NCBI GenBank assembly: GCA_036517255.1
Contig: DATDXE010000004.1
Coordinates: 30,543-94,542, forward strand
Reading direction: 5' to 3'
Source: Minisyncoccota bacterium
GTDB taxonomy: Bacteria; Patescibacteriota; Minisyncoccia; Phycocordibacterales; WO2-35-19
DNA: 64,000 nucleotides
Shown one piece after another: positions 1,153 to 45,145 of this stretch (positions within the stretch are counted from its first letter, which is position 1; every line of letters starts with the position of its first letter). The position numbers were made by a program, and so were the translations under genes. The notes under the pieces were generated by a model, which ran no database searches, was not told the DNA's origin, and worked only from the letters and a program-made list of their open reading frames with translations.

Positions 1153-2439
1153 ATGCTAAAAAACACCATAATAAAGCAAAAAGGAGACCGAGATAGGCTC
1201 ATGTCTCTTCCATACGTAGAACGTACACAAGAGATAAGAGCTCAAAAGTGGATGTCTTCAGATTTGATAAAAGTTATTCTCGGACCCCGACGAGCAGGAA
1301 AATCGGTCTTTGCTTTGATGTTGCTTAAAGATCAGTCTTTCGCCTATTTTAATTTCGATGATGAATCACTCCCTGGTGAGGAAAAAATAGATCTCGATGA
1401 ACTTCTTTCAGAATTAAAACAGGTCTACGGTGATACAAAATATATTTTCTTTGATGAAATACAAAACCTTCCAAATTGGGAATTGTTTGTAAACCGTCTT
1501 CATCGTTCCGGATACAATCTGGTCCTCACCGGTTCTAATGCCAGCCTTCTTTCAAAAGAACTGGCTACGCATCTTACTGGTAGACATATTCCGATAGAGA
1601 TACTACCTTTTAGTTTCCAGGAGTTTTTAAAAGCTAAGAGTTATGAACTTGATGCGGACAAACTAGCTCTACCTGATGAAAAGGCAAAGCTGTTTAGTTA
1701 TCTAACTCAGTACATGACGAATGGCGGATACCCTGAAGTTGTCACAAAAGATGTGGACCCTCGAGGATACTTGGATGTACTGTTCGATGCTGTGCTATTT
1801 AAGGACGTCATAAAAAGACACCGAGTTAAGTTTTCAAAGCAAATAGATAACCTAGGATCGTATTTGATAAACAATGTTTCAAATCAATACACCGCAAGAA
1901 AGCTTCGTGATGTATTGCAATTTAAAAGCGATGTAACCGTAGCAAAGTATCTCGATTATTTGATAGAGGCATATTTGTTGTTCTCTCTCGATCGTCACTC
2001 AAGTAAAGCAAGTTCCCGAATACAGTCTGCTAAAAAAACGTATGTGATAGACAACGGCCTTGTTACTGCTAAAGCGGTCCAACACTCCCCTAACACAGGA
2101 AAGCTTATGGAGAACTTGGTATTTACCGAACTCGTCAAAAAAGGTAATGAACCGAATCGTGAGGTGTTCTATTACAAAACTAGAAATGATAGAGAGATAG
2201 ACTTTGTTATAAAAAATGGACATGAAGTCGTAGAACTCATACAGGTAACATATGACGTTACCAATCCTGACGTCGAAGAACGTGAAGTCAAAGCCCTCGT
2301 GGAAGCCGGACAGGAATTGAATGTGAATAAACTCACAATCCTTACATGGAATGAAAAAAGGGAGGTAAAAAAAGGTGAAGTCACAATAGTATTTAGACCT
2401 CTGTATGAGTGGCTACTTGAAGTAAACAAAGAAAATTAA
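1153..2439 (+). CDS. AAA+ ATPase with C-terminal DUF4143-like domain
   Basis: ATG at 1153; Walker A GPRRAGKS, Walker B IFFDEIQ; architecture of the widespread AAA_14/DUF4143 ATPase family. Confidence 0.7.
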   Translation: MLKNTIIKQKGDRDRLMSLPYVERTQEIRAQKWMSSDLIKVILGPRRAGKSVFALMLLKDQSFAYFNFDDESLPGEEKIDLDELLSELKQVYGDTKYIFFDEIQNLPNWELFVNRLHRSGYNLVLTGSNASLLSKELATHLTGRHIPIEILPFSFQEFLKAKSYELDADKLALPDEKAKLFSYLTQYMTNGGYPEVVTKDVDPRGYLDVLFDAVLFKDVIKRHRVKFSKQIDNLGSYLINNVSNQYTARKLRDVLQFKSDVTVAKYLDYLIEAYLLFSLDRHSSKASSRIQSAKKTYVIDNGLVTAKAVQHSPNTGKLMENLVFTELVKKGNEPNREVFYYKTRNDREIDFVIKNGHEVVELIQVTYDVTNPDVEEREVKALVEAGQELNVNKLTILTWNEKREVKKGEVTIVFRPLYEWLLEVNKEN

Positions 2440-2593: not shown

Positions 2594-2701
2594 TTTGCAT
2601 TTATTCGGACTTAGACTTTAAGGGTCCAAAAATAATGCACCATATTTTATTTAAATTTCCTTGCTCCGGGAGTAGGGATCGAACCTACGACCAATCGCTT
2701 A

Positions 2702-3261
2702 CATTTTGTCTTCTATTACTAGAAGTATGGACTATATCATCCCCATATATTCAAAATCGAACACTTAGGGGCGAGGCGCTTCGTACCAACAACATTGCTG
2801 GAACTACTCTCTTGCGAGATAGTCTCTACACCTTTCCCTTGATTACTCTCGGGACTTGGCTCGGGATTGCCCCTTAGGGGTTTCCCCGAATTCACCTCGT
2901 TTTTCAACCCAAATTTCTTCGGGAAGCTGCGTGATGCCGTCATGTACTTCCATATGACAATTTGCGCAAATCAAAACACATTTATCTATTTCTTTGCGTA
3001 TTTTTTCCCAAGATCGAGTTAAACCTCTTAAGGACAAGCCAAAATCTTTTTTAGCTGGATCCACATGATGAAAACTCAAAGCTCTTGAGCATTTATTGTA
3101 GCCACATATAATACACTTATTGCCTTTATAAGCTCTCGCCATTTCACGTAAATTTTTTCTTCTACGTTTAACAGCCATTCGCATATATTCAGCACGGTCG
3201 GCATAAGTTCTTTTTTCTTTCCTGGTATACATATTATAAGTATACCGCAGAACTTATCGAC
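2702..3261 (-). other. group I self-splicing intron in tRNA-Asn anticodon loop (between nt 35 and 36)
   Basis: 5' exon ends in U, intron ends in G (AAAAUG|); 3' part carries GUAGAGACUAUC (R-like) and GAUAUAGUCC (S-like) elements that can form P7; ORF in the 5' peripheral region. Confidence 0.75.
2843..3232 (-). CDS. intron-encoded HNH homing endonuclease
   Basis: 129 aa; CIICGYNKC...HHVDPAKK...CANCHMEVH (HNH His-Me finger with two CxxC pairs); starts 29 nt after the 5' splice site. Confidence 0.8.
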   Translation of the reverse strand: MYTRKEKRTYADRAEYMRMAVKRRRKNLREMARAYKGNKCIICGYNKCSRALSFHHVDPAKKDFGLSLRGLTRSWEKIRKEIDKCVLICANCHMEVHDGITQLPEEIWVEKRGEFGETPKGQSRAKSRE

Positions 3262-3454
3262 ACAGGCGATCGCTCTACCGCTGAGCTATCCCGGAGCATG
3301 AAAATCTAAAACATATTGAATTATCAACGAACCAAATCAGTTTATCAGAAAAAGGAGATGAGGCAAGATTTTTAGAGTTATGCACTTAGATACAGAAATG
3401 ATATTGACGCTATTTTATAAAGGAGTAACATTTTCCATCAGGAGGCAGTAAAGT

Positions 3455-9442: not shown

Positions 9443-10480
9443 ATGAAGAAATTTCTCTCTCCTAAAATTTTGATTCTCACTACTGTTATCCTGCTTGGAG
9501 GAGTACTTTTATATTGGAAGCAAAATTCGAACAAGGCAATCGGAAATTTGAATGTATACGAAGGTAAAACTACGATCACTCGGGCTGAAAAATTGGTAGA
9601 AGGTAGAACGGGTATAGAGGTAAAAAGGATGGATGGGGTCAAAATAAACACTGACGCAAGAGCTTCTATCGTATTGAAAAATGGTGGCCTCTTGCGCCTC
9701 GAATCAGGTTCGGAAGTGGAAATATTGGGAGAAGACAATTTCAAATTGAAGAGTGGTCGAATGTGGTCGAGAGTAGAACCATTATCAGAAAATGAGTCTT
9801 ACAGTGTCGAAACTCCGACTGCGGTCGCCACCGTGCGAGGCACTATTTTTAATGTTGATTATTTATTTAATATAAGCCAGCTCTATGTGGATAGCGGTTT
9901 GGTAAATATGGCTCTGCTCATGGGTACTCCTGAAGAAAAGAAAGGTAAAGAAACTTTGTCGGGAGAACTTTTCGTATTAAGAGACAATAATTTAAAAAAT
10001 GATTTTGCAAAGGGGCCAGTACCTGCACCGAAAGAATTCTATGATGATTGGATACAGTGGAATGTGGATGAAGATGCTAAAGCAGGCTTTACAGAATGGG
10101 CCCATCCTGCTGAAGAAGAAATCGTAGAAGCCGTTCCTATAAACATAGTAAATCCTCCCAAACAAGTAGAGAAAAAAATCACTTCCATATTCCTTTATGG
10201 AAATAAATCTAAAATAAAACAAGGCGAGGAGACTAGACTTCTGGTAAGAGCTAGTTATCCTGATGGCTCTGTGCAAGAAGTGCCATTTGCAAATTTGACT
10301 TGGATAAAAAGTGAAAAGTGGGGAAACATAACTTCCCCCGGCTATTTCGGGAGCAATACAGTGGGTACGACTACCATATCGGCCCAAATAGGTAACTTAG
10401 TTTCAAACAGAGTCACTGTCGTAATCGAAGCGAATCCTGTTGTTCCTCCTCCAAACCCAAATACATATTATGAACCGTAA
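9443..10480 (+). CDS. FecR-domain membrane-anchored protein
   Basis: N-terminal TM; TAVATVRGTIFNVDY FecR-like beta-sandwich signature; C-terminal Ig-like segment. Confidence 0.6.
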   Translation: MKKFLSPKILILTTVILLGGVLLYWKQNSNKAIGNLNVYEGKTTITRAEKLVEGRTGIEVKRMDGVKINTDARASIVLKNGGLLRLESGSEVEILGEDNFKLKSGRMWSRVEPLSENESYSVETPTAVATVRGTIFNVDYLFNISQLYVDSGLVNMALLMGTPEEKKGKETLSGELFVLRDNNLKNDFAKGPVPAPKEFYDDWIQWNVDEDAKAGFTEWAHPAEEEIVEAVPINIVNPPKQVEKKITSIFLYGNKSKIKQGEETRLLVRASYPDGSVQEVPFANLTWIKSEKWGNITSPGYFGSNTVGTTTISAQIGNLVSNRVTVVIEANPVVPPPNPNTYYEP

Positions 10481-12179
10481 CAAGTTTTACTTTTCTTTTG
10501 GATTCCTCACAATAGTGGTTCTTACTCTCATAAATTATTCTGGGGTATTTCAAAATTTTGAATATAGAGCTCTCGACATTTTCCGTTCAGCTCACTCAGC
10601 TCATCCCGATATCGTGATCGCCGCGATTGATAATAAGAGCATAGAAGAAATAGGTCGTTGGCCATGGAATCGAAAAGTGCACGCCGATTTTCTAAATGTT
10701 TTAGATTCCTATGGACCTCAAGTATTAGCTTTTGATATAAATTTTTCTGAAAAGCAAGATGACCTAAACGATAGTGCGTTCGCTTTTGCTATAGAAAATG
10801 CTTCTTTCCCAACAGTACTTACTACCCAAGCTATATTTACAAAAAATTCTGAAACTCCCCAATCATTTTTAAAACCAGTCATATTTTCGAAAAACACTGG
10901 CCACGTGAATGTTCCTGAGAGCGATGATGGTATTACCAGAAAATTTCCTGAATCTCTTGGGACAAAAGAAGAAACATTTCTACCATTTAGTTTCAAATTG
11001 GCAGAAATAGTGGGAGCAAATTTACCAAAAGAACAAAACCTCCTTATAGATTTCAGTGGCAAGGCTGGATCTTTCCAAACAATTTCATACAGCGATGTTT
11101 TAAATCGTAAAATAAAAAGTGAAGATTTGAAAGATAAAATAATTTTGGTGGGGGCGACCGCAAGCGACCTGCGCGATTACGTTTATGTCCCAGTAGCAGG
11201 TGAAATTATCTCCGGAGTCGAGTGGCATGCAAATGTTTTGGACAATATTCTCTTAAGTAGAGCTGTTGCTTATGCGCCAACTAAATACTATGTTCTGCTC
11301 GGCCTAATAATTTGGCTGATCATTTTGCTTTTACCCCTTTCAATAAAAACAAGTAATGTTTCAAAAATATTTACTGTACTAGTTATCGGGCTACCAATAG
11401 CAAGCCTAATACTGTGGCAAACCGAAAGTGTCGCCCTCCCCTTCTTCATCAATCTTGTCGGACTGATCCTAATATTCTTGATACGTTCTGGTTATAAATG
11501 GTACCAGGTTGAGATGGAAAAAAGGAAACTGCATAGGACTATCCAAAATAGATTTTCGCCTCAAGTGGTAGAAGCGATCATGCATGATCCGGAACTGCTG
11601 AAGCTCGGCGGAGTACGTAAAGAAGTAACGGTGCTCTTTTCCGATATCCGCAATTTCACCACCATTAGCGAATCAGTTGCTCCGGAAACTCTTTCCAAAT
11701 TACTGCACGAATATTTCACTGAAATGACGGAGGAGGTGCTCGCGACCGACGGCGTACTCGATAAATTCATAGGCGACGCTGTCATGGCTTTCTGGGGCGC
11801 GCCGATAGAGCAAAGTGACCAAGTTGATAGAGCGGTCAAAACAGGGCTTGGTATGCTGCGACGTCTTACCGCTCTACAAAATAAATGGAAAAAACAAGAT
11901 ATGCCTTTTATAGATATCGGCATCGGCATCCACACCGGCATTGCTACCGTCGGTAACATGGGTTCAGAAAAACGTTTCGATTACACTGTGATCGGTGACA
12001 CAGTCAACATAGCCTCTCGCCTTGAAGGTTTGAATAAGGAATACCAGACCCACTTCATTATATCCGAAGCCACTCTCCACAAAATTTCTCCTTCCCTGAA
12101 CATCCAATCAAAACCCCTCGGCGAAGCCCTCGTCAAAGGCAAAACCCAAGGTGTAAATATTTTTGAAGTTAGCGAATAA
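10470..12179 (+). CDS. CHASE2-sensor adenylate/guanylate cyclase
   Basis: ATG 10470 (MNRNKF) overlaps FecR stop; CHASE2 region, 3 TM, class III cyclase motifs VTVLFSDIRNFT..FIGDAVMAFWGAP..GIHTG..GDTVNIASRLE. Confidence 0.8.
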   Translation: MNRNKFYFSFGFLTIVVLTLINYSGVFQNFEYRALDIFRSAHSAHPDIVIAAIDNKSIEEIGRWPWNRKVHADFLNVLDSYGPQVLAFDINFSEKQDDLNDSAFAFAIENASFPTVLTTQAIFTKNSETPQSFLKPVIFSKNTGHVNVPESDDGITRKFPESLGTKEETFLPFSFKLAEIVGANLPKEQNLLIDFSGKAGSFQTISYSDVLNRKIKSEDLKDKIILVGATASDLRDYVYVPVAGEIISGVEWHANVLDNILLSRAVAYAPTKYYVLLGLIIWLIILLLPLSIKTSNVSKIFTVLVIGLPIASLILWQTESVALPFFINLVGLILIFLIRSGYKWYQVEMEKRKLHRTIQNRFSPQVVEAIMHDPELLKLGGVRKEVTVLFSDIRNFTTISESVAPETLSKLLHEYFTEMTEEVLATDGVLDKFIGDAVMAFWGAPIEQSDQVDRAVKTGLGMLRRLTALQNKWKKQDMPFIDIGIGIHTGIATVGNMGSEKRFDYTVIGDTVNIASRLEGLNKEYQTHFIISEATLHKISPSLNIQSKPLGEALVKGKTQGVNIFEVSE

Positions 12180-30046: not shown

Positions 30047-30049
30047 ATG

Positions 30050-30123
30050 TGGGCGGTAGAGGGCTCGAACCCCTGAACCTTCCGAACGTCAATCGGACGC
30101 TCTACCAACTGAGCTAACCGCCC
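30050..30123 (-). tRNA. tRNA-Val(GAC), T-arm slightly non-canonical (one extra nt)
   Basis: GGGCGGT-TA-GCTC-AGTTGGTA-GAGC-G-TCCGA-TTGACGT-TCGGA...GTTCGAGC..ACCGCCC-A. Confidence 0.75.
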
Positions 30124-30803
30124 TTTTTTATATATAACTCACAAAACTTCCTACTAAGATATATCAATTTTCTCTGAATAGCAATATTAGCACAATCTAT
30201 TAAACACACCCCTTTATAATGAGGGTATGTTTTTTGACCTTTGGTTCTTTTATCAAAGGAAACATAACTAAATCTTGCAATTGGTACCTTGAGTTGCTGG
30301 GACCAATATTTTTTCATCTGCATAGAATTTTGGTCATACCTCAAATGTAATTCAAATCTAATTTTATTGATGTCTAAATTATAAACCTCAATCATATTCT
30401 TAAGAAAAAACTTGAGAATAAGCGGGTCTGAATTTCCCATACCTGTTTTTGAAGTTTTGAAACCCTCACCAAGGTATAACATCGAAAGAGCAATATCGAT
30501 TAATTTTCTATCTTTGATGTCTACTCCAGCTAGAGTGACCAACGCCTGATCTTTAGCATTCTTAACTCTCAGTCTTTTTTGTTCATGATGCCAAATTAAA
30601 GCTTTTTTCCTTGCTTTTATGAGAGACTCGTCCTGACGAATTTTTAGAGCTCGTCTATGTTTAATGCTTATGGAAACATTTTTCAACCATCCGCTTAAAG
30701 TAGAACGCGCGACTCCAAGCTTATTTTCTATGTCTCTTATAGAAAGCCCTTTGTAACGCAAACTGACAACTTTCTGCTTTAATCCGAACCACTTTGACCT
30801 CAT
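30114..30803 (-). CDS. HTH + degenerate LAGLIDADG-like putative homing-endonuclease-type protein
   Basis: N-terminal HTH (LSIRDIENKLGVARSTLSGWLKN); DIALSMLYLGEGFKTSK resembles a LAGLIDADG motif; abuts tRNA-Val. Confidence 0.35.
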   Translation of the reverse strand: MRSKWFGLKQKVVSLRYKGLSIRDIENKLGVARSTLSGWLKNVSISIKHRRALKIRQDESLIKARKKALIWHHEQKRLRVKNAKDQALVTLAGVDIKDRKLIDIALSMLYLGEGFKTSKTGMGNSDPLILKFFLKNMIEVYNLDINKIRFELHLRYDQNSMQMKKYWSQQLKVPIARFSYVSFDKRTKGQKTYPHYKGVCLIDCANIAIQRKLIYLSRKFCELYIKKGG

Positions 30804-30844: not shown

Positions 30845-31294
30845 TCAACATCGTTCAAAAGATGAGTCTTTTATACAACTTTTCCTAAAAGCTTCGTTCA
30901 TAAAACCCCAATCAAATGTAGCATTGTAAGCGATAAATATAGCTTCCTCCGATTTTTCCGCATACATTTCCATAGCCTCTTTGAGAGAAATGGCATCCTT
31001 CCAATTTTCCTCCATATACCCATTCCTTTCAATCGCTGCAGGAATCGCATTCGCGATATGCTCCGGTTTTACTTTCACATTTAAAGTATCCAAAATTTGT
31101 AGGCTTTTTTGGTCCACCATAACCAGCCCAATCTCAATTATTTCATGTTCCCCAAACACATCCCCACTCGTCTCCAAATCGGTAAAAGCAAGCGGTCTTT
31201 CATTTAATTTACCTAAATTATTGTGTGTCATGGTGTGTAGAGAGGCACCCTCTTTACATAAAATTATGTGGTGTAATTTTAATTTGTGACCCAA
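30845..31294 (-). CDS. DEDDh-type 3'-5' exonuclease-like protein (paralog of 401-955)
   Basis: FTDLETSGD (Exo I), IAYNATFDWGFMN (Exo II); exact start uncertain. Confidence 0.5.
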   Translation of the reverse strand: MGHKLKLHHIILCKEGASLHTMTHNNLGKLNERPLAFTDLETSGDVFGEHEIIEIGLVMVDQKSLQILDTLNVKVKPEHIANAIPAAIERNGYMEENWKDAISLKEAMEMYAEKSEEAIFIAYNATFDWGFMNEAFRKSCIKDSSFERC

Positions 31295-31479
31295 ATGTCT
31301 GGCTTTCAGAACTTTTTTCGTATAGAGATTTAGTAAAATTGAGTATTGAAAGTTTGGAAATAATTATGAAATAGAAAAGGCACCGCAGGTTTGAAGACCA
31401 AACGGCGCCTTAATTTGTCATTTTTACGTGTGAACTTCACGCCTCGTTTTGTTACAAAAAACGGTTGGCAAAAAAGAGC

Positions 31480-31815
31480 TCATTTGAGCTGAGATGAATT
31501 CCATCCCACCTGAACTGAGAACCACTGGATAGTGGCTCCAGCCGGGAGCACTCGTGCTCCCTCAGGCAACCTTGGACCCCTGTACTGTCCGACAATGACC
31601 TCGTCTCCGATCCTGACTGCAACCGTTGTGCGGTTGCAAGTCACCGGAACTCCCAAAGTCGAAGAGAACACGTTAGCGGTATCGGTATGACCGACGATGC
31701 TCGTTGCATCTTCCGCGTAGGATGCTGCCTGGTCCACATCAATCTCATCAATGTGGATGTCGACCGGAAAGGTTCCGATCATATTCACCGAGAAAGCATT
31801 GGCGATGTAGCGCAT
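31480..31815 (-). CDS. DUF1874 family protein (AcrIII-1 / Crn2 ring-nuclease-like)
   Basis: 111 aa; N-terminal NAFSVNM motif, IVGHTDT and downstream GDEVIV..RLPEG resemble STIV B116 / AcrIII-1 fold signatures (His43, Glu85 spacing ~42); strongly G+C-rich; own hairpin terminator overlapping stop. Confidence 0.45.
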   Translation of the reverse strand: MRYIANAFSVNMIGTFPVDIHIDEIDVDQAASYAEDATSIVGHTDTANVFSSTLGVPVTCNRTTVAVRIGDEVIVGQYRGPRLPEGARVLPAGATIQWFSVQVGWNSSQLK

Positions 31816-31963
31816 GGTCTCCTCCTGGGAGTCTTATGTAAAGTTAAGCCTGTTCTAATTTTTGGAGTCAGGATTTACAGAAGGCTTTTTACGCGGTAGC
31901 TTCGCGTGCCTTTTTTATAGCGGGCAAGACAGACCGCTTTTTCAAAAGTTAATTAACCTTTGA

Positions 31964-32915
31964 ATTTAGACACTCCATAATTGGAGAATGAAAAAATTTA
32001 AACATTTAAGCTATGAGGAAAGAGTAGCAATCTCTTTTCTTCAAGCGGAAGGTTGGAGCACAAGAGATATTGGTGAAAAACTTGGTCGTCATCATTCCTG
32101 CATTGCGTACGAATTGAAAAAGAAAGTTAAAGGCTTGTATGTAGCCAAAAAAGCTCACTACAAGTCATATTGGAGAAGATATTTGAGCAAGAAACAGTGT
32201 ATGAAAGTGGCTCTGGACAGAGAGCTGTCCAAATTCATTCCGGAAAAGCTCAAGGAAGGTTGGTCACCCGAAAGAATATCGGGGTACCTCAAGCTTCAAG
32301 GGAAAACCGTATCAACCAAAGCTGTATACAAGTTTGTGTACAGTCGTTGTTTAGAAAGATTTCTGTTCTGGAGAAAACATCACAAGAAAAGTGGTTGGAA
32401 GAAAAAGAGATATGGCAAAGCCAGTGATGGCAGAAAATATATTGAAGAAAGACCAGCGACACTCTGTTCTGGTCACTGGGAGGGAGACTTCATTGTCTCT
32501 TCTCACAATACTTGTTCTCTTTTGGTCTTGGTTGATCGATATTCCAGAAATACCATCATCAAGAAAATACCAAACAGAAAACACGCAGTTGTAATGCGTG
32601 CTTTCCAAGATTCCTTGCGTCATATGCCGATCAAGACACTGACATTAGACAATGATATATCATTTAACTGTTGGAAGAAACTGGAACAAATACTTAAGTG
32701 TTCTGTGTATTTTTGCCACCCGTATCACTCTTGGGAAAAGGGATTGGTTGAAAACACCAACAGGTGGATTAGATGTTTTGTGCCCAAAAGGAAAGATTTG
32801 AGAGAAGTCACAGACTTGGAGCTTCATTCAACCGAAGAGTTTTTAAACGAAATTCCACGCCAATGTCTTGGATTCAAAACAGCAAAAGAGGTATTATTAA
32901 TTAATCAAAGTGTCT
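31964..32915 (+). mobile_element. IS30-like insertion sequence (boundaries approximate)
   Basis: short inverted match TAGACACT (31964) / AGTGTCTA (32905) flanking the transposase; longer TIRs not resolved by eye. Confidence 0.35.
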
Positions 32916-32917
32916 AG
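31988..32917 (+). CDS. IS30 family transposase
   Basis: N-terminal HTH (LSYEERVAISFLQAEGWSTRDIGEKLG), DDE region HWEGDFIVSS..LDNDISF..E. Confidence 0.85.
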   Translation: MKKFKHLSYEERVAISFLQAEGWSTRDIGEKLGRHHSCIAYELKKKVKGLYVAKKAHYKSYWRRYLSKKQCMKVALDRELSKFIPEKLKEGWSPERISGYLKLQGKTVSTKAVYKFVYSRCLERFLFWRKHHKKSGWKKKRYGKASDGRKYIEERPATLCSGHWEGDFIVSSHNTCSLLVLVDRYSRNTIIKKIPNRKHAVVMRAFQDSLRHMPIKTLTLDNDISFNCWKKLEQILKCSVYFCHPYHSWEKGLVENTNRWIRCFVPKRKDLREVTDLELHSTEEFLNEIPRQCLGFKTAKEVLLINQSV

Positions 32918-33157
32918 ATTGAGGGGTGGGGAAACGAAAGATCTTACGCAGATAGTGTAGCATATTATATATTATTTGTCAACAAGTTTTTCAGAACTAT
33001 GAATAAACCCTACTTATTTAAGGTTATTTAGTGGTTTTCGTTTATTTTAGATAAATTTTAGGAATATGGTTTCAGAACTTTTATATTTCTAAAATACGTT
33101 TAAAAACAAAGATAAAATTAATCTTTGTTCTGAAAAAAGTAGTATCATCCCTTTATG

Positions 33158-33229
33158 TGACCCCACGGAGAGTCGGACTCCGCTTCCCGCCTTGAAAAGG
33201 CGGTGTCCTAACCGATAGACGATGGGGCC
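33158..33229 (-). tRNA. tRNA-Glu(UUC) with unusual T-loop (C at position 55)
   Basis: GGCCCCA-TC-GTCT-ATCGGTTA-GGAC-A-CCGCC-TTTTCAA-GGCGG-GAAG-CGGAG-TCCGACT-CTCCG-TGGGGTC-A; closely resembles bacterial tRNA-Glu. Confidence 0.7.
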
Positions 33230-33361: not shown

Positions 33362-33396
33362 CGCCTTTGCCTCGCGGTAGCTCGGCTTCGGCGGAC
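33362..33396 (+). repeat. direct repeat copy 1 flanking tRNA-Ser(CGA)
   Basis: CGCCTTTGCCTCGCGGTAGCTCGGCTTCGGCGGAC; near-identical copy at 33487-33522. Confidence 0.5.
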
Positions 33397-33400
33397 CGAT

Positions 33401-33487
33401 GGATGGGTGGCTGAGTGGTTGAAGGCACCGGTTTCGAAAACCGGCATACTCGAAAGGGTATCGTGAGTTCAAATCTCACCCCATCCG
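33401..33487 (+). tRNA. tRNA-Ser(CGA)
   Basis: GGATGGG..CCGGT-TTCGAAA-ACCGG, long variable arm CATACTCGAAAGGGTATC, GTGAG-TTCAAAT-CTCAC-CCCATCC-G. Confidence 0.85.
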
Positions 33488-33522
33488 CCTTCGCCTCGCA
33501 GTAGCTCGGCTTCGGCGGGACA
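33487..33522 (+). repeat. direct repeat copy 2 flanking tRNA-Ser(CGA)
   Basis: CGCCTTCGCCTCGCAGTAGCTCGGCTTCGGCGGGAC. Confidence 0.5.
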
Positions 33523-42418: not shown

Positions 42419-43594
42419 ATGCCTGCTGCTACTACTGCCCAAAGTAACGATCAACGGACGGCCTCCTCACAGACGCCGCCCCAAACAACCGTAGTCGACA
42501 GTCCGAAACCAAGACCACGCTATACTCTACTCTCGACTTGCCCCACCGGCTGGCTCGCGCTAGTCGTACGTGGAGAAGACCTGATCAGGGTGCTCCACTC
42601 GGTTCCCAAACACATCGTCAATGACGATTTCGAATTCATCCCTGATGATACCACCGCCGAAGAAGGAGACGATGTATTGAGCTTGCGGAACCTCACAGGA
42701 CGCGAGTTCATTGGATTTCCGTTCCTACGCCTAACCGGCCTCCACCGGTTCAATCATCAGTGGAGCCGGTTCTGGCCGAAATTGGACGCGGATGGGGCAC
42801 CGGTATACGAGGTGCAAGCCCACGAACGGCAGACTCTGACGTTCGCGCCATTCATCTCACAGTACCCCCTGGTATTTCCTGGGGTCGAAGTGATCGGTAG
42901 CGCGGTTGCCCCAGCGGCCGACAAAGCGGCAGGAGCCGAAACGGACCCAACATCGCAGAGGCCGCTCATACCAGTCACCTTCACGTTGACAATTCGGCTG
43001 AAGATGATACGCCCTCGGATGGCGCTCATGGAAAACACAGACGCCTTGGGCAACGTGCTGATTCCAAAAATCCGCGCCTTCCTCAAAGCCTACGCGGCCC
43101 AGAGAAGTTACGATGAATTGTTCCGCAGTTCGGGACAGTTTTCAGTAGTCACGGTCACCCAGGAATTTCGGAATTACTTCTTGGCGACAGGCAACGCGCC
43201 TGGAACAATCAGGGGTGAGATACTCGATCACACTGGGTACCAGCTCGACGACATCCAAGTTGTCGACATCAAACCCCTCGGAGAATACGAGCAAACGTTG
43301 CTCAATCTGGCCAAGGCCCACGTCGACGCCCAAAAGGCATATGTCGACGCCACGGGAAAACGCCGCGCGCGAGTTGAGGAAAGCCAAGGCGAAGCTACAG
43401 CAATAACCAACGTAGCTGCTGCCGATGCTCTTCGTATTCAGCAAACAATCATCGCGGCTGCAGGCGGTGCTGGACCAAATGCAATCGCGGCTCTGATCTG
43501 GGACATGATCAGGCAGTCGAATCTCACAACCTTGGGAGGTCAAGGACTCGGCATCATTGTCGATCCGAACAGCGGACGGCCAATGAATCCGTAA
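42419..43594 (+). CDS. SPFH/band-7-like domain protein lacking an N-terminal TM (G+C-rich cassette)
   Basis: 391 aa; C-terminal region GYQLDDIQVVDIKPLGEYEQTLLNLAKAHVDAQKAYVDATGKRRARVEESQGEATAI...NAIAALIWDMIRQ resembles SPFH domain end plus Ala/Glu-rich coiled coil of HflK/C-flotillin proteins. Confidence 0.45.
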   Translation: MPAATTAQSNDQRTASSQTPPQTTVVDSPKPRPRYTLLSTCPTGWLALVVRGEDLIRVLHSVPKHIVNDDFEFIPDDTTAEEGDDVLSLRNLTGREFIGFPFLRLTGLHRFNHQWSRFWPKLDADGAPVYEVQAHERQTLTFAPFISQYPLVFPGVEVIGSAVAPAADKAAGAETDPTSQRPLIPVTFTLTIRLKMIRPRMALMENTDALGNVLIPKIRAFLKAYAAQRSYDELFRSSGQFSVVTVTQEFRNYFLATGNAPGTIRGEILDHTGYQLDDIQVVDIKPLGEYEQTLLNLAKAHVDAQKAYVDATGKRRARVEESQGEATAITNVAAADALRIQQTIIAAAGGAGPNAIAALIWDMIRQSNLTTLGGQGLGIIVDPNSGRPMNP

Positions 43595-43626
43595 AGGTTA
43601 CAAAAGTCTGGAATCTCCTTATTCTT

Positions 43627-43676
43627 CAACCCCCTTTTGGAAAGCCGCAAGGCCGACCAGAGGGGGTTGCTTTTTT
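43627..43676 (+). terminator. rho-independent terminator
   Basis: CAACCCCC...GGGGGTTG stem then CTTTTTT. Confidence 0.6.
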
Positions 43677-43750
43677 ATATTAAGTATGCTATAATTGAAG
43701 ACAGAAGTGCGGCACAGGAGTGCCATTGAAAATCTTATACGGAGACGAAA

Positions 43751-45145
43751 ATGACGCCTATTGGAAACAGCAGCAATAGCAACCATGCCCCACAACGCGG
43801 AGAGGGGTTCACATACGGTCGAGGGACACCAAACCCCGCCCAAACCAATAACGAAGAGTGGTGGAAGAGATTCCGAGATATGTTTCGAAGGGCAACCTTC
43901 TGGGGCAAGATCGGACTGCTCTTCCAGCTTTTCCGAGCCTTTCGGGCTTGGGTAAAGAAGGAATGGTGGGGCATCGCCCTCGACACGGCGGTGGTAACAA
44001 CCATCCTGATTCTTGCTATGGGTTTAGCGACCCTCGGCATAAAGGACGGGAGTTCGGCGTTCACAACGGTAGCCATAAAGGGAGTCCTCATCGCGCTTGG
44101 CGCAGGAGCAGTGCTCTTCGGGGTATTACTCTTCCGCCGGCACCTCAAGTGGTGGCACCTTGGAATCGTGGCGACAATCATCGTCATGATTTTCTTCCTG
44201 CCATTCCACAGGATCGCACTCTGGATCCTCCATCCGATCCCCATGATATGGATCGTCGCAAGCCTCATGGCAATCGGCATTCACTTCTTCGGACCGGAAA
44301 AAGGTCTGCAGTGGAAGTGGAGAAAAAAATTGAAGCATCTTCCTAAGTGGAGGCTGAGGTTGCTGCCATTCGCGGCAGCAATCATTGCGACCATCGTGTA
44401 CCTCGCATTTAGCAACTTCGCCTTATCGGATTTGGGGTTGTTAGTACTGGTCGTGGTGGGGTTGGTAGTTCTCATCGTTATCGCAAGGACAATCGTAAAG
44501 AAAGATGAGAAAAACAAGGTCTGGCCCATCGCGGGCAAGATCGTGCTGATGCTCGTCGGGCTCGTGGTGTTCAACTACATCGCGCTCGCGACCTGGTCAT
44601 GGTGGAGGGTCCTCCGTCAGTACGAGGAGGTCTTCTGGGGAGTAAACGCCGCTCTGTTTGTGGCAATGCTCCTCACCCTGGTTACCACCGGGAAGGACGA
44701 CAACAAGAAAACCCATCCGCTTGCGATCACGGGCATCAAGGTGTTCATGTTCCTTGCGATAGTGGGGTTTGCGTCGGCTCTATACAACTTCGCCGTGGCG
44801 CACAGCCTCGACGAAGAAAAGAAAGTCGCCATGAACTCAACCAAGCTCGTGACGGCCCCTCCTAAGGGAGAAAACGATGATTGGAGCGATCCAATCAAAG
44901 TTCCAAAAGGAGTGAGCCTACGATTCCAAGCCAAAGACGGGGAGAACTATTACTCCGTCAAAAATGAGAAAGGGGAAGAGAAGCAGTACAACCCGCAAGG
45001 GCAAAGCTGTTTCGACACCGCAGGCACCGCAATGCTAGACGCGGAGCAGTGCCTCGGCGACTCAGAGATCATCTGGTTCCAGTCAGGGACCGACGAATCG
45101 AAGGAGATGATCGTAGAGTTCCTACCTTACGTCTCCAGAGAGTAG
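43751..45145 (+). CDS. polytopic membrane protein (about 10 TM) with ~100 aa C-terminal soluble domain (G+C-rich cassette)
   Basis: TGcTATAAT extended -10 at 43687-43695, GGAGA RBS; Trp/Arg-rich N-terminus then repeated hydrophobic helices; C-terminal domain with two Cys. Confidence 0.5.
   Translation: MTPIGNSSNSNHAPQRGEGFTYGRGTPNPAQTNNEEWWKRFRDMFRRATFWGKIGLLFQLFRAFRAWVKKEWWGIALDTAVVTTILILAMGLATLGIKDGSSAFTTVAIKGVLIALGAGAVLFGVLLFRRHLKWWHLGIVATIIVMIFFLPFHRIALWILHPIPMIWIVASLMAIGIHFFGPEKGLQWKWRKKLKHLPKWRLRLLPFAAAIIATIVYLAFSNFALSDLGLLVLVVVGLVVLIVIARTIVKKDEKNKVWPIAGKIVLMLVGLVVFNYIALATWSWWRVLRQYEEVFWGVNAALFVAMLLTLVTTGKDDNKKTHPLAITGIKVFMFLAIVGFASALYNFAVAHSLDEEKKVAMNSTKLVTAPPKGENDDWSDPIKVPKGVSLRFQAKDGENYYSVKNEKGEEKQYNPQGQSCFDTAGTAMLDAEQCLGDSEIIWFQSGTDESKEMIVEFLPYVSRE

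What the first reader, a model, noticed from the sequence alone, without database searches (positions are those of the whole stretch)
31440..31900. Stand-alone DUF1874 (AcrIII-1 / Crn2 ring-nuclease-like) gene in a G+C-rich cassette
The 111-aa ORF begins MRYIANAFSVNM and contains IVGHTDT...GDEVIVGQYRGPRLPEG. From memory this fits the STIV B116 / SIRV1 gp29 (AcrIII-1) fold family that cleaves cyclic tetra-adenylate, with a candidate catalytic His43 and Glu85 at the expected spacing. It has its own hairpin terminator. It sits between a DEDDh exonuclease gene and an IS30 transposase. No cas genes or CRISPR array occur in the 64 kb. Either it is a mobile anti-defence (anti-type III CRISPR or anti-cA4 signalling) gene, or it regulates an unrecognised cA4-dependent system in this organism.
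Basis: partly seen in the sequence, partly recalled or inferred. Interest (0 to 1): 0.7.

Follow-up and report, generated by a model that had tools for sequence, protein, structure and literature searches.

The report
Lone cA4 ring-nuclease gene in CPR bacterium
This is a real, intact gene of the known AcrIII-1/Crn2 family, enzymes that destroy the cyclic tetra-adenylate alarm signal of type III CRISPR immunity; it was picked up horizontally and sits alone in a small-genome (CPR) bacterium with no CRISPR genes nearby, which makes it a solid but fairly ordinary new member of a known family.

Summary
Window 31480..31815 (minus strand) encodes a 111-aa protein. It passes Pfam PF08960 (39.5 bits, cut-off 26) and hits STIV B116 and SIRV1 gp29/AcrIII-1 directly by sequence. 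Its model (pLDDT 93.9) matches only DUF1874 structures. The catalytic His (H43 = gp29 H47) and 8 of 9 published cA4-contact side chains are kept. It is 44.6% identical to the experimentally validated phage THSA-485A AcrIII-1.

The gene is monocistronic, with a Shine-Dalgarno sequence and two terminator hairpins. It has foreign codon usage (GC3 z = 4.6). It lies in a 3-kb lineage-specific insert between tRNA-Val and tRNA-Glu. That insert also holds an IS30, a DnaQ-exonuclease fragment and an HTH-LAGLIDADG-fold gene.

No cas, CARF, SAVED or CRISPR array occurs in about 84 kb. Relatives occur in real phages, in one true type III-D locus (a Crn2 position) and in many CPR chromosomes. In the CPR loci a TrmB-family regulator often lies upstream.

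Best reading: a horizontally acquired, AcrIII-1-type cA4 ring nuclease, acting as mobile-element anti-defence cargo or its relic. A role regulating a distant cA4 system cannot be excluded. It is a new member of a known kind, of modest interest.

The parts
31480..31815 (-). DUF1874 (AcrIII-1/Crn2-family) coding sequence, 111 aa; His43 is the predicted general acid and Arg82 the predicted lid-lock residue
31820..31826 (-). Shine-Dalgarno sequence AGGAGGA, 4 nt upstream of the ATG
   Evidence: read directly from the sequence
31477..31490 (-). weak terminator-like hairpin (5 bp) overlapping the stop codon, followed by U6
31366..31411 (-). stronger terminator-like hairpin (31377-31411) with a U-rich tail; it separates the gene from the exonuclease fragment downstream
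   Evidence: MFE -37.5 kcal/mol, z = -3.9 for 31360-31495
30845..31294 (-). DnaQ/RNase T-type DEDD exonuclease fragment (N-terminal half only; ExoIII motif missing); gene callers start it at 31231
30114..30803 (-). 229-aa protein with an N-terminal HTH and a C-terminal LAGLIDADG/WhiA-type fold; member of a CPR-wide family of more than 836 proteins; not a CARF or SAVED sensor
30049..30123 (-). tRNA-Val(gac), left boundary of the lineage-specific 3-kb insert
31956..32927 (+). IS30-family insertion sequence (transposase 31988-32917); imperfect 19-nt inverted repeats at 31956-31974 and 32909-32927; single copy in the window; divergent from the DUF1874 gene and about 140 nt upstream of it; no target-site duplication identified
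33157..33229 (-). tRNA-Glu(ttc), right boundary of the insert

Best explanation
The gene encodes a metal-independent, cyclic tetra-adenylate (cA4)-specific ring nuclease of the DUF1874 (AcrIII-1/Crn2) family. By analogy with SIRV1 gp29, two subunits form a dimer that buries one cA4 at the interface. A lid loop (about residues 79-91, RGPRLPEGARVLP) closes over the ligand, with Arg82 locking the closed dimer. His43 of each subunit protonates the leaving group while a ribose 2'-OH attacks in line. The ring is cut twice to give two A2>P products, which switches off cA4-activated CARF effectors such as Csx1. In this organism the gene is a horizontally acquired, stand-alone, monocistronic unit. It lies in a lineage-specific insert at a tRNA-cluster hot spot, next to an IS30, a decayed exonuclease gene and a selfish-type LAGLIDADG-fold gene. 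It is not linked to any cas gene. Its most likely biological role is therefore the AcrIII-1 role: cargo of a mobile element, or the relic of one, that quenches cA4 signalling by type III CRISPR systems, which do occur in some CPR lineages. Shown here: family membership, fold, conservation of the active-site and ligand-contact residues, foreign codon usage, insertion relative to sister genomes, and absence of cas genes within about 84 kb. Inferred: dimerisation, cA4 cleavage, expression, and the anti-defence role.
For: Family and fold: PF08960 at 39.5 bits against a cut-off of 26. PDB sequence hits to B116, gp29/AcrIII-1 and AFV3-109. AlphaFold2 model pLDDT 93.9; Foldseek's significant hits are all DUF1874 structures: 6SCF, 2X4I, 2J85, 2J6B and Csx1-Crn2 8Y7F (8Y7G just above E = 1e-3). 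The only low-confidence block (residues 81-90, pLDDT 79) coincides with the mobile lid loop 82-94 of gp29.

Active site: gp29 N8, S11, N13, H47, T50, R66, Q81 and R85 align with query N6, S9, N11, H43, T46, R62, Q77 and R82; only S49 differs, aligning with D45. H43, T46, R62, Q77, R82 and E85 are invariant in 35 homologues.

Experimental anchor: the query is 44.6% identical over 91% of its length to the DUF1874 protein of phage THSA-485A, which abolished cA4-based but not cA6-based type III immunity.

Link of this subfamily to cA4: a 42%-identical member lies between PrimPol/Cas1 and Cas6/Csx1 in a type III-D locus with a CRISPR array (L032).

Mobile and viral association: 66 IMG/VR loci carry relatives; portal, terminase, DnaB, DNA polymerase and tail sheath genes were confirmed in L050, L051, L062 and L064; phrog_5063 at 5e-18; plasmid copies exist.

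Horizontal acquisition: GC3 is 0.591 against 0.383 expected from host codon usage, z = 4.6, with 0 of 10,000 simulations reaching it. Sister genomes have TrxB-[tRNA Val/Glu/Ser]-TsaD with 0.1 to 0.7 kb between the tRNAs, or unrelated cargo, where the window has the 3-kb insert.

No local partner: no cas, CARF or SAVED genes, no CRISPR array, and the neighbouring protein has a LAGLIDADG fold.

Type III systems exist in CPR bacteria (PMC6509639, PMC10746230).
Against: No phage, plasmid or conjugative-element genes accompany the gene in the window, so a mobile-element origin is inferred only from composition, the IS30 and the variable locus. The nearest relatives form a clade dominated by CPR chromosomes and not by viruses, and there the gene sits among housekeeping genes, which also fits domestication. 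Only about 84 kb of the genome was inspected, so a type III or other cA4 system elsewhere would favour a Crn2-type role. CPR bacteria rarely have CRISPR-Cas (PMC6509639). In native SIRV2 infection the homologue gp37 did not act as an anti-CRISPR (bioRxiv 10.1101/2023.01.10.523387). Activity, dimerisation and expression were not tested.
Confidence: 0.6

Rival explanations
1. It is a host-domesticated Crn2-type ring nuclease acting in trans. It resets cA4 levels for a type III CRISPR system, or another cA4-producing system, encoded elsewhere in this genome.
For: A member of the same subfamily occupies a Crn2 position in a type III-D locus (L032). The window protein falls in a clade dominated by CPR chromosomes, where genes sit among housekeeping genes and a TrmB-family regulator lies upstream in 11 loci. 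That is the kind of tight transcriptional control the AcrIII-1 authors proposed for domesticated copies. Hoikkala et al. found 31 loci with ring nucleases but no effector and suggested action in trans (PMC12409355). Type III systems exist in some CPR bacteria.
Against: No cas, CARF, SAVED or CRISPR array in about 84 kb. The window copy has no TrmB neighbour. Foreign codon usage and the adjacent IS30 point to recent arrival. CPR bacteria rarely encode CRISPR-Cas. Crn2 is rare, found in 7 of 38,742 genomes.
Confidence: 0.2
2. The fold is retained but the protein has a different main role: binding and inhibiting another protein, as reported for SIRV2 gp37 and a lysine methyltransferase, or degrading or sequestering a different cyclic nucleotide.
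For: In native infection SIRV2 gp37 did not act as an anti-CRISPR, and it bound the host protein SiL_1451. Many viral ring-nuclease genes lie outside anti-defence islands. The gene is widespread in CPR genomes, which mostly lack CRISPR. The gp29 cA4 contact S49 is replaced by Asp45.
Against: The catalytic His and 8 of 9 cA4-contact side chains are kept and are invariant across the subfamily, which argues that cA4 chemistry is under selection. The methyltransferase partner is restricted to Crenarchaeota, and its binding residues are not conserved.
Confidence: 0.1
3. It is an unexpressed or functionless relic left behind by a decayed mobile element, and it is intact only by chance.
For: It sits beside a truncated exonuclease gene and an IS30. 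No promoter was identified. No partner system is nearby.
Against: The reading frame is full length, with every invariant residue of the family, a strong Shine-Dalgarno sequence and terminators. The cassette is 100% identical in nine of the ten assemblies compared, from several samples; the tenth has five mismatches.
Confidence: 0.1

Closest known systems
AcrIII-1 of Thermoanaerobacterium phage THSA-485A and of SIRV1 (gp29, PDB 6SCF/2X4I)
   Same: Same Pfam family, same fold (TM 0.74 to 6SCF), same catalytic His and cA4-contact residues. It is 44.6% identical to the THSA-485A protein, which was shown to abolish cA4-dependent type III immunity. Both are small stand-alone proteins of about 110 aa.
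   Different: The window gene is not on a recognisable virus. It is chromosomal in a CPR bacterium, next to an IS30. gp29 S49 corresponds to Asp45. The extra C-terminal tail (residues about 104-111) is not shared with most homologues.
Crn2 (CRISPR-associated DUF1874; for example Crenothrix polyspora, the Marinitoga Csx1-Crn2 fusion PDB 8Y7G, and locus L032 found here)
   Same: Same domain and same predicted chemistry. The L032 protein, which lies in a type III-D locus, is 42% identical to the query.
   Different: Crn2 is defined by association with type III CRISPR loci. The window gene has none within about 84 kb.
YddF of the Bacillus subtilis conjugative element ICEBs1 (a DUF1874 protein listed in the AcrIII-1 paper)
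   Same: A stand-alone DUF1874 gene carried in a bacterial chromosome on an integrated mobile element, not in a CRISPR locus.
   Different: YddF lies inside a defined conjugative element. No conjugation or integration genes accompany the window gene apart from the IS30. I did not compare the sequences directly.
Csx16 (CRISPR-associated cA4 ring nuclease, confirmed in PMC12409355)
   Different: The score is better, and the coverage fuller, for PF08960, which includes the N-terminal NAFSxNM motif. NCBIfam's Csx16 model gave no hit even at E = 0.01. The window gene is not CRISPR-associated.

Membership tests
DUF1874 / STIV_B116-like (PF08960), the AcrIII-1/Crn2 superfamily | Profile match above the curated gathering score | tested here: met
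   39.5 bits against 26; residues 3-86 match profile positions 2-86 of 101
DUF1874 / STIV_B116-like (PF08960), the AcrIII-1/Crn2 superfamily | The family's distinctive alpha/beta fold | tested here: met
   pLDDT 93.9. The hits at Foldseek probability 1.00 are all DUF1874 structures: 6SCF, 2X4I, 2J85, 2J6B, 8Y7F and 8Y7G (TMq 0.65-0.77)
DUF1874 / STIV_B116-like (PF08960), the AcrIII-1/Crn2 superfamily | Absolutely conserved catalytic histidine (gp29 His47) | tested here: met
   His43 aligns with His47 and is invariant in 35 homologues. The role of His47 comes from 10.1101/778746
DUF1874 / STIV_B116-like (PF08960), the AcrIII-1/Crn2 superfamily | cA4-contacting side chains (gp29 N8, S11, N13, S49, T50, R66, Q81, R85) | tested here: met
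   7 of these 8 are kept (N6, S9, N11, T46, R62, Q77, R82); S49 aligns with D45. Counting His47, 8 of 9 are kept
DUF1874 / STIV_B116-like (PF08960), the AcrIII-1/Crn2 superfamily | Homodimer that buries cA4 at the interface | not testable with these tools
   Only single-chain prediction was available. Tandem two-domain family members (P0215, P0216) are consistent with a dimeric unit
DUF1874 / STIV_B116-like (PF08960), the AcrIII-1/Crn2 superfamily | Metal-independent cleavage of cA4 to A2>P | not testable with these tools
   Needs a biochemical assay
AcrIII-1 in the strict sense (anti-CRISPR) | Encoded by a virus, plasmid or other mobile element | tested here: inconclusive
   Foreign codon usage, a lineage-specific insert at a tRNA hot spot and an adjacent IS30, but no phage, plasmid or conjugative-element genes in the window. 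Close relatives do occur in confirmed phages
AcrIII-1 in the strict sense (anti-CRISPR) | Inhibits cA4-dependent type III CRISPR immunity in vivo | not testable with these tools
   Needs a plasmid or phage challenge assay
Crn2 (CRISPR ring nuclease 2) | Located in or next to a type III CRISPR-cas locus, or fused to a cA4 effector | tested here: not met
   No cas, CARF or SAVED genes in 76 window ORFs or in 10 kb beyond each end, and no CRISPR array. The rest of the genome was not seen
Csx16 | Match to curated Csx16 models, and CRISPR association | tested here: not met
   PADLOC Csx16 gives a partial match (E = 1.3e-8, residues 25-92), but NCBIfam gives no hit and there is no CRISPR context

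The most novel reading that the evidence does not exclude
CPR (Patescibacteria) bacteria maintain a chromosomal clade of AcrIII-1-type ring nucleases as a cas-independent function for quenching cyclic oligoadenylates. This clade is typically downstream of a TrmB-family regulator. In one genome it is followed directly by an AAA-Csx3 (Crn3-type) fusion and a CRISPR-linked Mvol_0529-family gene, with no cas genes nearby. On this reading the window gene is a working member of that clade and not a passive phage relic. That would imply cA4 signalling, or defence against it, in a lineage thought to be nearly devoid of CRISPR.
Probability: 0.15. Interest if true: 0.6.

Novelty: new member of a known kind. 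Interest (0 to 1): 0.3.

Why it matters
The finding adds a confidently assigned cA4 ring nuclease to a groundwater CPR bacterium and shows how such genes travel: as single, compositionally foreign genes dropped into variable tRNA-flanked spots. Its main value is as an entry point. At least 12 of the 35 species genomes found to carry this subfamily are CPR, a group that rarely has CRISPR-Cas, and no paper in the searched library links ring nucleases with Patescibacteria. If these copies are active and regulated, they would indicate either that cA4-based immunity puts more pressure on mobile elements of CPR bacteria than CRISPR surveys suggest, or that cA4 signalling exists there without recognisable cas genes. 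For the window gene itself the result is confirmatory and not surprising.

Tried and rejected
1. Imperfect 30-nt direct repeats with hairpins flank the gene (31421-31450 and 31886-31915). I considered them as att-like or cassette ends. In a fair test across 96 loci against shuffled flanks the window scored z = 1.3, which is not significant. The pattern search was circular.

2. A PADLOC 'Cas10' hit next to a homologue (L014, 511 aa) is only the HD domain of RNase Y.

3. CRISPR-like repeats: in L048 the tblastn 'homologue' lies inside a real CRISPR array and is probably a spurious translation. The L088 repeats are iteron- or promoter-like and are not a CRISPR array.

4. The PycC (Pycsar cyclase) hit in the window most likely belongs to the CHASE2 plus class III cyclase gene at 10440-12179, which is paired with a FecR gene. 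That is an ordinary signalling cyclase and not a cOA system.

6. I tested whether TrmB and DUF1874 travel together as a module. The TrmB genes have host-like GC, so co-transfer is not supported by composition.

7. I tested whether the 510-540-aa proteins with a C-terminal DUF1874 domain (P0336, P0266) are Csx1-Crn2 fusions. There is no PDB sequence hit, and BLASTP against the L032 Csx1 is not significant. Only an R-x4-H motif is visible, so this is inconclusive.

8. The Rfam hit to GP20-b upstream of the gene is below threshold (24.4 bits against 36.2).

9. No target-site duplication could be found for the IS30.

10. The AAA-Csx3 and Mvol_0529 neighbours recur only in one genome.

Full report
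**Observation.** It is 111 aa long and contains all the quoted peptides, with His43 and Glu85 as numbered. An AGGAGGA Shine-Dalgarno sequence lies 4 nt upstream of the ATG. Downstream on the coding strand there are two hairpins followed by U-tracts: a weak one overlapping the stop codon (31477-31490) and a stronger one at 31377-31411. The 136-nt stretch folds with z = -3.9 against shuffles. The gene therefore looks monocistronic.

**Family membership.**
- Pfam PF08960 (STIV_B116-like, formerly DUF1874) matches at 39.5 bits against a gathering score of 26.
- phmmer against PDB sequences hits STIV B116 (2J85), SIRV1 gp29 (2X4I, 6SCF) and AFV3-109 (2J6B) at 3e-8 to 2e-6.
- An AlphaFold2 model built on 35 homologues has pLDDT 93.9.
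- Foldseek's significant PDB hits (E at or below 1e-3) are all DUF1874 structures, led by the AcrIII-1-cA4 complex 6SCF (E = 1.3e-8, TM 0.74); the Crn2 domain of Marinitoga Csx1-Crn2 follows (8Y7F within that limit, 8Y7G just above it).
- The only lower-confidence block in the model (residues 81-90) coincides with the mobile lid loop, residues 82-94 of gp29.
- The AcrIII-1 preprint (10.1101/778746) gives His47 as the general acid, R85 as the residue that locks the closed dimer, and N8, S11, N13, S49, T50, R66 and Q81 as cA4 contacts. In the alignment these correspond to query H43, R82, N6, S9, N11, D45, T46, R62 and Q77. Eight of nine are kept and only S49 differs.
- H43, T46, R62, Q77, R82 and E85 are invariant across 35 homologues of 42-59% identity.
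- Glu85 aligns with gp29 E88, but that preprint never mentions E88, so I treat its catalytic role as unverified.
- The PADLOC hit to Csx16 (E = 1.3e-8, partial) reflects the known partial similarity of Csx16 to DUF1874 (PMC8284326; PMC12409355). NCBIfam gives no Csx16 hit.

**Experimental anchor.** Among cultured phages the best match is the DUF1874 protein of Thermoanaerobacterium phage THSA-485A, at 44.6% identity over 91% of the query. That gene abolished cA4-dependent but not cA6-dependent type III immunity in the original study.

**Genomic setting.** The window is a CPR/Patescibacteria chromosome, with FtsA, FtsZ, TrxB, TsaD, ValRS, GroEL, GyrA and RNase P RNA.
- The exact protein occurs on about 20 contigs from several samples, always in the same context. 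The 3.6-kb region is 100% identical in nine of the ten assemblies compared; the tenth (L006) has five mismatches.
- The gene lies in a 3.03-kb interval between tRNA-Val (30049-30123) and tRNA-Glu (33157-33229).
- Sister CPR contigs (50-68% TrxB identity) keep the order FtsA-FtsZ-TrxB-[tRNA Val/Glu/Ser]-TsaD-ValRS. In L123 the three tRNAs fill a 560-nt gap. In L126 about 0.66 kb separates them. L118 and L119 carry unrelated cargo at the same spot.
- The interval is therefore a variable hot spot, and its content in the window is lineage-specific.
- That content is an IS30 (NF033563, 198.8 bits; single copy), the DUF1874 gene, a DnaQ-type exonuclease ORF, and a 229-aa protein.
- The exonuclease ORF matches only the N-terminal half of every model, lacks ExoIII and falls below all cut-offs, so it is a fragment.

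**Composition.**
- The gene has GC 0.54 against 0.417 for the window, and the excess is confined to the coding sequence.
- Given its amino-acid sequence and host codon usage, the expected GC is 0.472. The remainder is codon choice: GC3 is 0.591 against 0.383 expected (z = 4.6; 0 of 10,000 simulations reach it). This makes it the third most codon-atypical gene in the window.
- This supports horizontal acquisition.
- The same bias is family-wide. Across 104 loci the DUF1874 gene exceeds its flanks by 6.5 GC points on average, and by 10 points or more in 28 loci.

**Search for a partner system.**
- PADLOC on all 76 window ORFs shows no Cas10, Csm/Cmr, CARF, SAVED or CD-NTase among the listed families.
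- The hits it lists look generic (two members each for ATPase-type families, which I take to be the window's two ABC-transporter ATPases; a class III cyclase, most likely the CHASE2-cyclase gene paired with FecR) or unrelated to cOA signalling (one 'PDC-S01' candidate); the batch output does not name the matching ORFs.
- No CRISPR array is present.
- Ten kb beyond each window end holds only housekeeping genes.
- The rest of the genome could not be inspected.

**Relatives and their contexts.** The family is large: 3,595 cluster representatives at E of 1e-3 or better. The subfamily with the QYRGPRLPEG motif occurs in four settings.
- **Phages.** 66 IMG/VR contigs carry it, at up to 58% identity. 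Portal, terminase, DnaB, DNA polymerase and tail-sheath genes were confirmed in four of them. The query matches phrog_5063.
- **Plasmids.** Copies occur in Nitrosomonas, Thermus and Thermoanaerobacterium.
- **One genuine type III-D CRISPR locus.** In L032 the gene order is array, Cas1, PrimPol, DUF1874, Cas6, Csx1, with Cas7-IIID further along. That is a Crn2 position.
- **Species genomes.** 35 genomes carry it, at least 12 of them CPR.
- Clustering about 1,500 neighbouring proteins found no conserved partner and no cas cluster.
- In CPR-type loci the neighbours are housekeeping genes, except for a TrmB-family regulator. It is always on the 5' side, 130-2,630 nt away, in 11 loci, and is directly adjacent and divergent in three. 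Its GC is host-like.
- In one Patescibacteria genome the DUF1874 gene is followed by an AAA-Csx3 fusion (PADLOC 3.6e-40; residues 287-362 match the Crn3 structure AF_1864) and a CRISPR-linked Mvol_0529-family gene, with no cas genes within 8 kb.
- A neighbour-joining tree places the window protein in a 14-member clade dominated by CPR sequences, nested in a larger clade that is mostly viral.

**Interpretation.** The biochemical assignment as a cA4 ring nuclease of the AcrIII-1/Crn2 type is strongly supported by homology, though untested.
- The AcrIII-1 reading (mobile-element cargo or its relic) fits best. It accounts for the foreign codons, the variable insert, the IS30 and selfish-gene company, the absence of a local cas or effector gene, the abundance of close relatives in phages, and the documented type III-A and III-B systems in some CPR lineages (PMC6509639, PMC10746230).
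- A Crn2-type role in trans cannot be excluded without the full genome. The CPR-chromosomal clade and the TrmB linkage keep it alive.
- A preprint showing that SIRV2 gp37 is not an anti-CRISPR in native infection (10.1101/2023.01.10.523387) warns against equating ring-nuclease activity with Acr function.

**Novelty.** Stand-alone DUF1874 genes in bacteria, prophages and conjugative elements were already described, and NCBI already labels CPR homologues 'DUF1874 domain-containing protein'. The window gene is therefore a new member of a known kind. The CPR enrichment, the TrmB linkage and the cas-less DUF1874/AAA-Csx3 pair are not mentioned in any paper of the searched library. They are the more interesting leads, but they concern related loci and not the window gene itself.

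Noticed in passing
L011:8001-13923 (identical to L016; Patescibacteria MAG JBAZJR010000001): The DUF1874 homologue (57% identical to the query) is followed directly by a 573-aa AAA-Csx3 (Crn3-type ring nuclease) fusion, then a CRISPR-linked 'Mvol_0529-family' gene, then MoxR and VWA genes. A TrmB regulator lies 2 kb upstream, and there are no cas genes within 8 kb. This is a cas-less cluster of two ring-nuclease-type genes in a CPR genome.
   Followed up: partly
L011, L014, L016-L020, L024, L026, L028, L042 (regions 130-2,630 nt upstream of the DUF1874 gene): In 11 CPR-type loci a TrmB-family (PF01978) regulator lies on the 5' side of the DUF1874 gene. It is usually divergent, and it is immediately adjacent in L024, L026 and L042. 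Its GC is host-like while the DUF1874 gene is GC-rich. It could be an Aca-like or domesticating regulator.
   Followed up: partly
104 related loci (L011-L114): DUF1874 genes are systematically GC-richer than their flanks: mean +6.5 points, 10 points or more in 28 loci, and up to +26 points. GC3 is often 0.6-0.9 even in hosts with about 30% GC. The cause is unresolved; repeated recent transfer and selection on composition are both possible.
   Followed up: partly
L032:33-11481 (Acidobacteriota MAG): A type III-D CRISPR locus with an array, Cas1, a PrimPol, a DUF1874 (Crn2-like) gene, Cas6, Csx1, an OLD/Gabija-like ATPase and Cas7-IIID. This is a bona fide Crn2 context within the query's own subfamily.
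   Followed up: yes
window 42419-45145: Two adjacent genes (391 and 464 aa) are by far the most codon-atypical in the window (GC3 z = 9.5 and 13). They have no significant Pfam, PHROG or PADLOC family. They sit directly after a tRNA-Phe/Lys/Leu cluster and RNase P RNA, so this is a second foreign island.
   Followed up: partly
window about 2665-3297 (minus strand): A tRNA gene appears to be split by the group I intron (Rfam RF00028, 2709-2997), which carries an HNH endonuclease ORF (2846-3232). tRNA-like halves are visible at about 3261-3297 and 2665-2697. ARAGORN did not call it.
   Followed up: no
window 33362-33518: 33-nt direct repeats (94% identical) flank tRNA-Ser(cga). One assembly of the same organism (L005) lacks exactly the 124-nt unit between them, which suggests recombination, or an assembly variant, that removes the tRNA.
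   Followed up: partly
window 30114-30803: The 229-aa HTH plus LAGLIDADG/WhiA-fold protein belongs to a Pfam-less family of more than 836 proteins, 52-62% identical across distant CPR phyla and mostly on very short contigs. This is the behaviour expected of a selfish or mobile gene.
   Followed up: yes
P0215, P0216: Tandem two-domain DUF1874 proteins (single-chain 'dimers') in which only one of the two domains keeps the catalytic His; the other has Leu or Phe. They might cut cA4 only once.
   Followed up: no
L044 and L018, flanks of the DUF1874 gene: In L044 the gene is flanked by direct repeats containing hammerhead-ribozyme-like cores (CTGATGAG...CGAAAC). In L018 it is flanked by a 34-nt near-perfect direct repeat.
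   Followed up: no
window 1153-2439 (attribution inferred) and 9443-12179: One window protein hits the PADLOC candidate defence family PDC-S01 at 1e-104; it is probably the AAA_14/DUF4143 ATPase at 1153-2439. A FecR plus CHASE2-class III cyclase pair at 9443-12179 probably accounts for the PycC-like hits.
   Followed up: no
L011: 7479-7550, 8430-8651, 10913-10981, 15976-16047: A short sequence of about 70 nt recurs upstream of several genes of the DUF1874/AAA-Csx3/MoxR cluster. It may be a shared regulatory element.
   Followed up: no
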